A DNA stretch of 64,000 bases, taken from the IMG/VR virus record IMGVR_UViG_3300045988_159706. One strand, 5' to 3'. The notes below the pieces were generated by a model. It saw only the letters and a list, made by a program, of their open reading frames with translations. It searched no databases and was not told the origin of the DNA. The first letter of the stretch is position 1. Every line of letters begins with the position of its first letter. Below, in pieces: positions 20,731-20,872 of the stretch. The DNA is from a virus. The translations under genes were made by a program, and so were the position numbers.

Positions 20731-20872
20731 GATGTGCTAATTCACTAATAAAAAATCATAAGACTGGGGGTTCGAGTCCCCCATTCGCCGCTAATTAAAT
20801 CACTATATGGCGAATTAGAGAAATGGTTAACTCGTATGAATACAATAAGTTAAAGTGAGTTAGATGCACATT
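20731..20872 (+). ncRNA. circularly permuted tRNA-like RNA (P2)
   Basis: TCATA (20756-60), T arm GGGGG-TTCGAGT-CCCCC, ATTCGCC-G, 18-nt linker, GGCGAAT (20809-15), D arm GAG-AAATGGTTAA-CTC, TATGA (20835-39); outer 16-bp helix with a 3-nt bulge (20731-46 / 20854-72). Confidence 0.65.

What the first reader, a model, noticed from the sequence alone, without database searches (positions are those of the whole stretch)
20731..20872. Second permuted tRNA-shaped RNA P2, with a long bulged closing helix
The order is the same as in P1. TCATA, AGACT, T arm GGGGG-TTCGAGT-CCCCC and ATTCGCC-G come first, then an 18-nt linker. GGCGAAT, D arm GAG-AAATGGTTAA-CTC and TATGA follow. The flanks pair as GATGTGCTAATTCACT with AGTGAGTTA-GAT-GCACATT, giving 16 bp with a 3-nt bulge. 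The result is a long stem carrying a tRNA-like head. P2's stem sequences differ from P1's while the architecture is kept, which argues for selection on structure.
Basis: seen in the sequence. Interest (0 to 1): 0.8.

Follow-up and report, generated by a model that had tools for sequence, protein, structure and literature searches.

The report
Permuted tRNA-like RNA beside DUF7873
P2 is a real, strongly conserved non-coding RNA folded like a tRNA whose two halves are swapped and whose anticodon arm is replaced by a long helix; it follows an uncharacterised phage gene (DUF7873) in about 40 of the 50 related loci scored, often beside a Ro60-like RNA-binding protein gene, and matches no RNA family in Rfam.

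Summary
P2 (20731-20872) has a T arm, a 7-bp acceptor stem closed by an 18-nt segment, a D arm and a 5-bp anticodon stem. The anticodon stem runs into a 16-bp helix with a 3-nt bulge. It is not a gene for a decoding tRNA, because it has no anticodon loop. It is the 3' domain of a roughly 290-nt conserved RNA that starts about 15 nt after the stop codon of a DUF7873 gene (19804-20589). This gene-RNA pair recurs in 36 of 49 divergent loci by covariance model, and in 7 more by pattern scan. These include a cultured Vibrio phage and a Cytophagaceae chromosome. Covariation is very strong: 93% of cells are paired and 35 of 36 pairs show compensatory changes. In 27 of 69 loci a Ro60-like gene (DUF2828/DUF7788) sits directly upstream. 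The window has one at 26703-28394. The segment closing the acceptor stem starts like the 3' trailers of the local genuine tRNA genes. This suggests RNase P/Z processing into a two-piece tRNA mimic. The architecture resembles the bacterial Y RNA YrlA, but P2 fails the membership tests for that family. I read it as the RNA subunit of a DUF7873 (plus or minus Ro60-like) particle. The function has not been tested.

The parts
19804..20589 (+). DUF7873 protein gene (261 aa), the conserved genomic partner of the P2-type RNA
   Evidence: Pfam PF25283, E = 4e-31. A P2-type RNA lies 75-400 nt downstream on the same strand in 36 of 49 scorable divergent loci by model R1, and in 7 of the remaining loci by pattern scan. 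It is also present in Vibrio phage D517 and in a Cytophagaceae chromosome. The AlphaFold model (pLDDT 85.7) has no significant Foldseek match.
20607..20705 (+). Upstream domain of the same RNA. The stem TTGACG 20607-12 with CGTCAA 20700-05 encloses AGCUUUAG-like hexamer-periodic repeats. It is preceded on the 3' side by a conserved UUAGUGU-YG block and followed by AAGCUUUAG.
   Evidence: The sequence blocks are conserved from phages to a bacterial chromosome. The stem covaries (TCACT/AGTGA, CCGC/GCGG, TTACCT/AGGTAA, CCAAC/GTTGG): 7 of 7 pairs have changes on both sides, with 77% of cells paired against 29-40% when slid.
20731..20746 (+). 5' strand of the closing helix (GATGTGC + TAATTCACT)
   Evidence: It pairs with 20854-20872. 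All 16 pairs show changes on both sides in the family alignment.
20747..20755 (+). A-rich 5' joint (AATAAAAAA). The A run is 6-9 nt long in close relatives.
   Evidence: Alignments A1 and A7.
20756..20765 (+). 3' strand of the anticodon-stem equivalent (TCATA) and the variable region (AGACT, with U48)
   Evidence: The stem covaries. The Levitt pair A15-U48 becomes G15-C48 in L031, read directly from alignment A4.
20766..20782 (+). T arm GGGGG-TTCGAGT-CCCCC
   Evidence: GGTTCRANTCC is nearly invariant in the family.
20783..20790 (+). Acceptor 3' strand ATTCGCC plus the discriminator-position G
   Evidence: Seven base pairs with 20809-15. Compensatory changes occur in L006 and L010 and across the family.
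20791..20808 (+). Intervening segment that closes the acceptor stem (CTAATTAAATCACTATAT). It starts with the C74-U-A-A trailer signature.
   Evidence: In the family C74 is 40/40, A76 is 35/40 and position 73 is U in 34/40. Length is 16-29 nt as a rule and up to 131 nt. The window's genuine tRNA genes carry the same N73-C-(U/A)-A trailers. The Vibrio phage copy encodes CCA.
20809..20839 (+). Acceptor 5' strand GGCGAAT, U8 A9, D arm GAG-AAATGGTTAA-CTC, G26, and the 5' strand of the anticodon-stem equivalent TATGA
20840..20853 (+). 3' joint ATACAATAAGTTAA (family consensus about UAGCUUAAA)
   Evidence: Alignment A7.
20854..20872 (+). 3' strand of the closing helix, AGTGAGTTA-[GAT bulge]-GCACATT
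   Evidence: A 3-nt bulge on this strand is kept in L031 (CAG), L121 (UAA) and L200 (AAA).
26703..28394 (+). Ro60-like protein gene (563 aa; DUF2828 + DUF7788/vWA with a DxSxS motif)
   Evidence: Pfam and PHROG 850 'RNA-binding protein'. The AlphaFold model has pLDDT 81. Its only full-length Foldseek PDB match is Xenopus Ro60, 1yvr, E = 5e-6 over 569 columns. A homologue sits directly upstream of DUF7873 in 27 of 69 loci.
19014..19136 (+). P1, a sibling permuted tRNA-like element of the other subfamily. Its terminal stem is AAAGTCTCT/AGAGACTTT, followed by a TCAGCAA motif.
21262..21396 (+). P3, a third permuted tRNA-like element. Its terminal stem is GGTTACT/AGTAACC, followed by a TCAGCAA motif.

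Best explanation
P2 is the tRNA-like 3' domain of a roughly 290-nt non-coding RNA encoded immediately after the DUF7873 gene. It folds as an L-shaped tRNA mimic with the halves in permuted order. The acceptor stem is closed by a dispensable intervening segment. The anticodon stem has no loop and instead continues into a 16-bp bulged helix formed by the two ends. I propose that it is the RNA subunit of a ribonucleoprotein. In this model the bulged helix and the conserved joints are the handle for the DUF7873 protein. Where a Ro60-like protein is present, as in this phage, it would also join the particle. The tRNA-like head would be the module seen by tRNA-recognising enzymes. This is the logic of bacterial Y RNAs of the YrlA type. 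The intervening segment begins like the 3' trailer of the local genuine tRNA genes. I therefore further propose that RNase Z, RNase P and the CCA-adding enzyme open the acceptor end. The result would be a two-piece tRNA mimic held together by 28 base pairs, as happens in two-piece tmRNA and in Mycobacterium smegmatis YrlA. Shown here: the fold, its conservation, and the linkage to the genes. Inferred: protein binding, processing, and any role in tRNA or RNA quality control during infection.
For: The fold is supported by thermodynamics (z = -3.57) and by ARAGORN accepting the rejoined halves as a tRNA. U8, A14, G18G19, the T-loop TTCGAGT and G53-C61 are all present, and the Levitt pair covaries. 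On five sequences, 100% of cells are paired and 10 pairs show changes on both sides. On 40 sequences, 93.1% are paired and 35 of 36 pairs show such changes, against about 40% paired when the partners are slid. For linkage to DUF7873, the model built from P2 alone finds the element 75-400 nt downstream of the gene, on the same strand, in 36 of 49 scorable loci at 34-67% protein identity. A pattern scan adds 7 of the remaining loci, which carry 18-122-nt acceptor-loop segments. Two further cases are a Cytophagaceae chromosome and the cultured Vibrio phage D517. No other protein gene is a common neighbour. For linkage to the Ro60-like gene, a DUF2828/DUF7788 gene lies directly upstream of DUF7873 in 27 of 69 loci. 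It lies 3.5 kb upstream in two more, and 5.8 kb downstream in this window. That protein is Ro60-like by fold. Processing hints come from the trailer. C74 is 40/40 and A76 is 35/40, and an A/U-rich ACAU/ACAA/AUAA precedes G+1, while the middle of the segment varies from 16 to 131 nt. The window's real tRNA genes have the same N73-C-U-A-A trailers. The Vibrio phage copy encodes G-CCA, as does a tRNA gene of that phage. Published precedent exists: YrlA has the same T, closed acceptor stem, D order, and M. smegmatis YrlA is cut by RNase P and receives CCA (PMC4201824; bioRxiv 10.1101/312249).
Against: There is no expression, end-mapping or binding data. DUF7873 has no recognisable RNA-binding fold and no structural relative. 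The RNA starts so close to the stop codon that it could simply be the 3' UTR of the mRNA. Lak megaphages have DUF7873 followed by a terminator and no such RNA. Vibrio phages and the bacterial locus show no Ro60-like gene, so Ro60-like cannot be an obligatory partner. The 27 adjacent-gene loci come largely from one sample and may represent few lineages. The alignment used for the large covariation count was fitted to the model. The Rfam YrlA model does not recognise P2-type elements.
Confidence: 0.5

Rival explanations
1. P2 is a cis-acting 3'-UTR element of the DUF7873 mRNA. A tRNA-like structure would define or protect the message's 3' end through RNase P/Z cleavage or by blocking exonucleases, or would let the protein autoregulate its own mRNA. 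It would have no function in trans.
For: The conserved RNA begins about 15 nt after the stop codon, with no terminator between them in the window. The association is with a single gene family across great distances. Permutation would place the acceptor 3' end on the upstream, mRNA-bearing piece, as in the coding piece of two-piece tmRNA (my own knowledge of tmRNA).
Against: In Vibrio phage D517 a GC-rich hairpin directly follows the ORF and the element lies 179 nt further on. Spacers of 230-400 nt occur in some loci. Simple end protection does not need a full L-shaped mimic with conserved tertiary-pair nucleotides and a 16-bp bulged helix.
Confidence: 0.2
2. P2 is a Y RNA of the Ro60-like protein alone, that is, a divergent YrlA. 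The bulged helix would bind Ro60-like, and DUF7873 would be only a syntenic neighbour.
For: P2 has the YrlA architecture. A Ro60-like protein is encoded in the window and sits next to DUF7873 in many loci. The P2-only model cross-detects the tRNA-like units that sit downstream of Ro60-like genes.
Against: The element tracks DUF7873, not Ro60-like. Relatives L014, L081 and L082 have the Ro60-like gene but show neither DUF7873 nor P2 in the ranges sampled. Vibrio phages and a bacterial locus have DUF7873 and the RNA with no detectable Ro60-like gene. The RNAs that cluster next to Ro60-like genes are the YCAGCAA-motif units, and P2 lacks that motif.
Confidence: 0.12
3. P2 is a tRNA decoy or sponge. 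The tRNA-like head would soak up a host tRNA-targeting defence nuclease or a tRNA-binding enzyme, and the helix would serve only for stability.
For: It is a close tRNA mimic lying in a phage tRNA cluster. The sibling element P1 has a head that is hypervariable among near-identical genomes, as expected in an arms race.
Against: There is no anticodon loop, which is the usual target of anticodon nucleases. P2 itself is nearly invariant among close relatives. The module also occurs in a bacterial chromosome among housekeeping genes. The strict pairing with DUF7873 is left unexplained.
Confidence: 0.1
4. P2 is a true circularly permuted tRNA gene that matures into a decoding tRNA after its ends are joined.
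For: The 3' half precedes the 5' half, and the rejoined sequence passes ARAGORN. Tail signals resemble those of tRNA genes. An RNA-repair nucleotidyltransferase (RlaP) is encoded in the window.
Against: No conserved 7-nt anticodon loop can be formed, and the joints differ in length and sequence between relatives. There is no bulge-helix-bulge motif. The 16-bp terminal helix itself is conserved by covariation, which is pointless if it is discarded. The phage already has a nearly full tRNA set.
Confidence: 0.02
5. P2 is a chance juxtaposition, or debris of two tandem tRNA genes.
For: Tandem tRNAs can mimic the pattern. Three weak partial hits of the model were of this kind.
Against: The acceptor halves pair 7/7 and the anticodon-stem halves 5/5, and both covary. 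The outer helix covaries. The element is conserved at a fixed position relative to a gene in dozens of divergent genomes.
Confidence: 0.01

Closest known systems
YrlA, the tRNA-like bacterial Y RNA bound by Rsr/Ro60 (Rfam RF02553; Chen et al. 2014, PMC4201824)
   Same: The order of modules is the same: 5' end, (variable region), T arm, acceptor-like stem closed by a loop, D arm, 3' end. The ends pair into a stem that carries the tRNA-like head. tRNA tertiary-pair nucleotides are kept. It is encoded near a Ro60-type gene on the same strand. One member (M. smegmatis) is opened by RNase P and receives CCA.
   Different: P2-type elements give no hit to the Rfam model. The GNCGAAN0-1G motif is absent. 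The terminal helix is much longer and bulged. The tightest genomic partner is DUF7873. The Ro60-like protein is DUF2828/DUF7788, not Pfam TROVE. There is a conserved extra 5' domain.
Two-piece tmRNA from circularly permuted ssrA genes (alpha-proteobacteria, cyanobacteria; my own knowledge)
   Same: The gene is permuted so that the T arm and acceptor 3' strand come first. An intervening segment follows, then the acceptor 5' strand. The segment is removed, leaving two base-paired pieces with a free acceptor end.
   Different: P2 has no tag reading frame or pseudoknots. It has a full D arm. It has C3-G70 instead of G3.U70. ARAGORN finds no tmRNA here. Processing of P2 is only inferred.
Circularly permuted tRNA genes of Cyanidioschyzon merolae and other algae and archaea (reviewed in PMC4090602)
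   Same: The 3' half of a tRNA is encoded upstream of the 5' half, with a linker across the acceptor ends.
   Different: Those precursors are circularised at a bulge-helix-bulge motif by the splicing endonuclease and yield normal decoding tRNAs. P2 has no such motif, no anticodon loop, and a conserved terminal helix.
Units of terminal stem plus YCAGCAA motif beside Ro60-like genes (found here), and Dictyostelium Class I RNAs (Rfam RF01414; PMC7919456)
   Same: P1 and P3 of this window and many units in related phages share with P2 the permuted tRNA-like core. They are found by the P2 model.
   Different: P2 lacks the YCAGCAA motif and the short 6-9-bp terminal stem, and it is not part of those arrays.
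b7a-tRNA, the Band-7-associated tRNA-like RNA (Burroughs and Aravind 2016, as cited in bioRxiv 10.1101/312249)
   Same: It is a tRNA-like RNA predicted to work with a scaffold protein in RNA-repair neighbourhoods. The window has a Band-7 gene at 24416-26029, next to the Ro60-like gene.
   Different: b7a-tRNA is described as closely resembling an authentic tRNA, not a permuted one. No model or sequence was available to test it, and P2 does not track the Band-7 gene.

Membership tests
YrlA (Rfam RF02553) | Module order T arm, closed acceptor-like stem-loop, D arm, with the 5' and 3' ends paired | tested here: met
   with the description in PMC4201824.
YrlA (Rfam RF02553) | Match to the Rfam covariance model (gathering score 69 bits) | tested here: not met
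   No hit on P2 at E <= 10. No hit on P2-type elements of 10 loci at E <= 1. By contrast, tRNA-like YCAGCAA units reach 36-39 bits.
YrlA (Rfam RF02553) | GNCGAAN0-1G motif near the 5' end (presumed Rsr-binding site) | tested here: not met
   The 5' part GGATGTGCTAATTCACTAATAAAAAA contains no such motif, and there is none in the family consensus.
YrlA (Rfam RF02553) | Encoded within 4 kb of, and on the same strand as, a TROVE-domain Ro60 gene | tested here: inconclusive
   It is on the same strand but 5.8 kb away in the window. It is about 0.9 kb away in 27 related loci. The protein is Ro60-like by fold but is DUF2828/DUF7788 rather than TROVE in Pfam. Some loci have no Ro60-like gene at all.
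YrlA (Rfam RF02553) | Bound by Ro60/Rsr in vivo | not testable with these tools
   This needs immunoprecipitation.
Circularly permuted tRNA gene (decoding tRNA) | 3' half upstream of 5' half, with complementary acceptor strands | tested here: met
Circularly permuted tRNA gene (decoding tRNA) | Termini form a bulge-helix-bulge motif, so that joining restores a 7-nt anticodon loop | tested here: not met
   There is a 16-bp helix with one 3-nt bulge on one strand. The joints are 9 nt and 14 nt and vary in length between relatives.
Two-piece (permuted) tmRNA | Tag reading frame with resume codon; G3.U70; detection by ARAGORN or Rfam tmRNA | tested here: not met
   ARAGORN reports no tmRNA in the window. 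The Rfam gathering-score scan gives none. Positions 3-70 form C-G.
Two-piece (permuted) tmRNA | Intervening segment excised from the acceptor loop, leaving a CCA end | not testable with these tools
   There is only indirect support: the trailer signature matches that of genuine tRNA genes, and CCA is encoded in the Vibrio phage copy.
Dictyostelium Class I-like / YCAGCAA units | Terminal stem of 6-9 bp, immediately followed by a (CUU)ACAGCAA motif on the 5' side | tested here: not met
   The motif is absent from P2 and from the P2-type consensus. It is present in P1, P3 and two simple units of the window.
DUF7873-associated permuted tRNA-like RNA (family defined here) | Located 75-400 nt downstream of a DUF7873 gene on the same strand; long bulged terminal helix; A-rich 5' joint; UAGCUUAAA-like 3' joint; N73-C74-N-A start of the intervening segment | tested here: met
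   P2 starts 142 nt after the stop codon and all the listed features are present.

The most novel reading that the evidence does not exclude
The DUF7873-linked RNA is a new class of split tRNA mimic. It would be transcribed as a permuted precursor and opened at the acceptor end by RNase Z, RNase P and the CCA-adding enzyme. It might then be aminoacylated or otherwise used through its free CCA end. It would work in a particle with the fold-orphan protein DUF7873 and, in many phages, a divergent Ro60. This would make it part of a phage and bacterial tRNA/RNA surveillance system that has not been described. A related point concerns the sibling YCAGCAA RNAs beside the Ro60-like genes. They match Dictyostelium Class I RNAs, which were thought to be unique to dictyostelids. 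That would make Class I RNAs Y-RNA-like partners of DUF2828 proteins.
Probability: 0.25. Interest if true: 0.85.

Novelty: new variant of a known kind. Interest (0 to 1): 0.72.

Why it matters
tRNA-shaped Y RNAs have been described for TROVE-type Ro60 of bacteria and for a few mycobacteriophages. What their tRNA-like head does is still an open question. This finding adds an RNA family that is absent from Rfam, is supported by strong covariation, and is tied to a protein family with no known fold or function. It occurs in large phages from many environments, in cultured Vibrio phages and in a bacterial chromosome, and often lies beside a divergent Ro60. The cultured Vibrio phage D517 group offers an experimental system for three questions. 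Is a permuted tRNA mimic opened and given CCA? What binds its head? Why do phages with large tRNA sets carry such particles? The work also supplies a model (R1, alignment A7) for annotating these elements. At present they are missed, or miscalled as small ORFs.

Tried and rejected
1. Rfam. The gathering-score and E <= 10 scans gave nothing on P2, and nothing on 10 homologous loci.

2. My first hypothesis was that P2 is the Y RNA of the Ro60-like protein. It was weakened when synteny pointed to DUF7873, then partly restored by the adjacency of Ro60-like and DUF7873 genes.

3. GCUAAU in the 5' strand looked conserved between the window and L031. It is not kept in L121 or the wider family.

4. 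The ACA/GCA triplets after the anticodon stem looked like an anticodon. They are not conserved.

5. P2 is not a recent copy of one of the phage's tRNAs; only generic T-arm similarity was found.

6. DNA similarity to GenBank phages found only tRNA matches.

7. DNA-pattern scans of IMG/VR for more distant P2 copies were uninformative.

8. RNAalifold on the spacer alignment predicted no structure. The stem there was found by eye and counted separately.

10. DUF7873 has no PDB or BFVD fold match, no PDB sequence match, and no PHROG, NCBIfam or PADLOC family. No paper mentions it.

11. Burroughs and Aravind 2016 and Sim et al. 2020 were not held.

12. The supplementary tables of Chen et al. 2014 were not held.

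13. I could not test whether the Dictyostelium Class I RNA-binding protein DDB_G0281243 is a DUF2828 protein.

Full report
**Context.** The window is AT-rich (35% G+C) with all genes on the + strand. It carries about 28 tRNA genes, including two suppressor tRNAs, and a pistol ribozyme. It also encodes NAD and purine-salvage genes, an ABC transporter and other auxiliary genes. It comes from a large phage. Thirteen IMG/VR contigs of 100-180 kb are 95-98% identical in the neighbouring protein. No GenBank phage is close at the DNA level.

**Observation.**
- RNAfold gives -36 kcal/mol against -23.9 +/- 3.4 for dinucleotide shuffles (z = -3.57). It recovers the 16-bp closing helix with its 3-nt bulge, the T arm and the acceptor stem.
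- A strict pattern scan of both strands finds three convincing elements in 64 kb. These are P1 (T arm at 19057), P2 (20766) and a third, P3 (21313).
- After rejoining the halves in normal order with an artificial anticodon loop, ARAGORN calls P1 and P2 tRNAs.
- P2 has U8, A14, G18G19, A21, G26, the T-loop TTCGAGT and G53-C61.
- The Levitt pair is A15-U48 in the window and G15-C48 in the relative L031, read from alignment A4.

**Conservation of P2.**
- In the 13 close relatives P2 is nearly invariant, except for the segment closing the acceptor stem, the length of an A run, and compensatory acceptor changes in L006 and L010.
- In L031, where the neighbouring protein is 67% identical, all six helices change while pairing is kept. 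With five sequences, 100% of 180 cells are paired and 10 pairs have changes on both sides. Slid controls give 35-49% paired.

**First hypothesis: a Y RNA of a Ro60-like protein.** The order T arm, closed acceptor stem, D arm, with paired ends, is that of YrlA, the tRNA-like Y RNA of bacterial Ro60 (PMC4201824; bioRxiv 10.1101/312249).
- The window encodes a 563-aa protein (26703-28394) with Pfam DUF2828 + DUF7788.
- Its AlphaFold model (pLDDT 81) has one full-length match in the PDB, Xenopus Ro60 (1yvr, E = 5e-6, 569 columns). All other matches cover only the vWA domain.
- It is 24.6% identical to mycobacteriophage Loadrie gp54, annotated 'Ro-like RNA binding protein'. That protein is also DUF2828 + DUF7788.
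- In 45 divergent loci with this gene, units made of a short terminal stem plus a YCAGCAA motif are more than ten-fold enriched in the first kilobase downstream on the same strand. The densities are 4.0 and 2.5 per kb against about 0.3 per kb background, and 39 of 45 loci have at least one unit.
- Some units carry a permuted tRNA-like core and reach 36-39 bits with the Rfam YrlA model, below its cut-off of 69. Others are simple stem-loops.
- P1 and P3 of the window belong to this class. P2 does not: it lacks the motif and is not seen by the YrlA model.

**Turn: P2 tracks the DUF7873 gene.** P2 starts 142 nt after the stop codon of a 261-aa DUF7873 gene (19804-20589).
- L031 keeps the same arrangement. 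Relatives L014, L081 and L082 have the Ro60-like gene but show neither DUF7873 nor P2 in the ranges sampled.
- A covariance model built from P2 alone (R1) was run on 50 divergent DUF7873 loci (34-67% protein identity), one of which is cut short just after the gene. It finds a full-length element 75-400 nt downstream of the gene, on the same strand, in 36 of the other 49.
- Of the loci it missed, 7 have the element with an 18-122-nt segment in the acceptor loop.
- Further carriers are a Cytophagaceae chromosome, where the gene sits among unrelated cellular genes, and the cultured Vibrio phage D517 (29.5 bits, E = 3e-5).
- Lak megaphages have the gene followed by a terminator and no such RNA.
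- On the 40-sequence alignment, which was fitted to the model, 93.1% of 1212 cells are paired and 35 of 36 pairs show changes on both sides. The covariation score is 0.73 against 0.08-0.12 when partners are slid. The two outer helices are included.
- Three weak partial hits were tandem tRNA genes.
- No other protein family is a common neighbour.

**A larger RNA.** The spacer between the stop codon and P2 is itself conserved from phages to the bacterial locus.
- Its features are a stem (window 20607-12 with 20700-05), AGCUUUAG-like hexamer-periodic repeats and a UUAGUGUUG block.
- The stem covaries: 7 of 7 pairs have changes on both sides, and 77% of cells are paired against 29-40% when slid.
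- P2 is therefore the 3' domain of an RNA of about 290 nt. Its fold is more stable than shuffles (z = -3.2).

**Link back to the Ro60-like gene.** In 27 of 69 DUF7873 loci a DUF2828/DUF7788 gene lies directly upstream of DUF7873. The order is Ro60-like, DUF7873, then the RNA. In two other loci DUF7873 lies 3.5 kb downstream of the Ro60-like gene. In the window the two are 6 kb apart. Vibrio phages and the bacterial locus show no Ro60-like gene. So DUF7873 plus the RNA is the core module, and Ro60-like is a frequent but optional neighbour.

**Acceptor end.** In the family, position 73 is U in 34 of 40 sequences, C74 is 40 of 40, and A76 is 35 of 40.
- The last four bases before G+1 are ACAU, ACAA or AUAA. 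The middle of the segment varies from 16 to 131 nt.
- The window's genuine tRNA genes all have N73-C74, followed mostly by UAA or AAU.
- In Vibrio phage D517 the element reads G-CCA, and a tRNA gene of that phage also encodes CCA.
- The segment thus looks like a tRNA 3' trailer joined to a 5' leader. This suggests removal by RNase Z and RNase P and completion by the CCA-adding enzyme.
- The precedents are two-piece tmRNA (my own knowledge) and M. smegmatis YrlA. This step is inferred, not shown.

**DUF7873.** The AlphaFold model (pLDDT 85.7) has no significant match in the PDB or BFVD. There is no PDB sequence match, no PHROG, NCBIfam or PADLOC family, and no paper.

**Verdict.** P2 is a genuine structured RNA. 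It is a permuted tRNA mimic on a long bulged helix and belongs to a family absent from Rfam.
- It works like YrlA-type Y RNAs in architecture. It fails the tested membership criteria for YrlA: model score, 5' motif and TROVE partner.
- It is not a permuted gene for a decoding tRNA.
- The most likely role is as the RNA subunit of a DUF7873 (plus or minus Ro60-like) particle that presents a tRNA-like head, possibly after the acceptor end is opened (confidence 0.5).
- The main rival is a cis-acting 3'-UTR element of the DUF7873 mRNA (0.2).

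Noticed in passing
L080 6660-7010 (Leptolyngbya phage Lbo-JY46, PP438436.1); L061 9750-10600; L119 4425-4690 (Mycobacterium phage Loadrie); 45 loci in all: Arrays of 2-10 units lie directly downstream of Ro60-like (DUF2828/DUF7788) genes. Each unit is a 6-9-bp terminal stem plus (CUU)ACAGCAA, then a variable interior, the 3' stem strand and CUGAUAAG. The simple units match the Rfam Dictyostelium Class I RNA model almost to its cut-off (39.3 bits against 41.5), including the CUUACAGCAA motif and the 3' CUG. Class I RNAs are reported as unique to dictyostelids (PMC7919456), and one of their pull-down partners, DDB_G0281243, has no known function.
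   Followed up: partly
window 19014-19136 (P1) and the same place in L001-L013: The tRNA-like head of P1 differs strongly (73-96% identity, with compensatory T-stem and acceptor-stem changes) among phage genomes whose flanking genes are 95-98% identical. Its terminal stem and TCAGCAA motif are invariant. This looks like cassette exchange or diversifying selection on the head.
   Followed up: partly
window 21262-21396 (P3); 21063-21116 and 23840-23892 (simple units): There is a third permuted tRNA-like element (terminal stem GGTTACT/AGTAACC plus TCAGCAA). There are also two simple units of terminal stem plus TACAGCAA, interleaved with tRNA genes. None was part of the finding as given.
   Followed up: partly
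window 24416-28394; L081 8188-11646: A 537-aa Band-7/SPFH (flotillin-like) gene, a NADAR gene and the Ro60-like gene lie in a row. In relative L081 the Band-7 gene is directly upstream of the Ro60-like gene. Band-7 and Ro/TROVE have both been proposed as scaffolds of RNA-repair systems with tRNA-like RNAs.
   Followed up: no
window 61045-62145 and 62209-63546: An RlaP-type 'RNA repair pathway' nucleotidyltransferase gene is followed by a 445-aa ORF with no family match in Pfam, PHROGs, NCBIfam or PADLOC. It could be an unrecognised RNA ligase or partner protein.
   Followed up: no
window 3204-3274: A pistol self-cleaving ribozyme (70.3 bits, well above the Rfam cut-off) lies upstream of tRNA genes.
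   Followed up: no
window 20912-21030 and 41494-41584: There are two suppressor-type tRNAs (anticodons CTA and TCA). The CTA one has an enlarged anticodon loop or insert, and a 13-bp GC-rich hairpin (20912-20942) lies just upstream, 40 nt after P2. ORF statistics do not suggest stop-codon recoding within this window.
   Followed up: no
window 4218-4291, 22173-22244, 6542-6615: Two tRNAs are found by Rfam but missed by ARAGORN. For a third, ARAGORN could not assign an anticodon.
   Followed up: no
L202 3329-3424 (Vibrio phage D517, VPHD517_0060): A 31-codon 'hypothetical protein' CDS annotated in GenBank overlaps the P2-type RNA and is probably a miscall.
   Followed up: no
L192 2042-2442; L188 1215-1510: In other phages the DUF7873 gene sits right after a tmRNA gene (L192) or near a group I intron (L188). 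This places it within clusters of translation-related RNA genes.
   Followed up: no
L154, L169, L178, L179, L197, L175, L148, L122 (acceptor loops of P2-type elements): Some family members carry insertions of 60-130 nt in the segment that closes the acceptor stem. In Vibrio phage D517 the segment folds into its own hairpin. The content and fate of these inserts are unknown.
   Followed up: no
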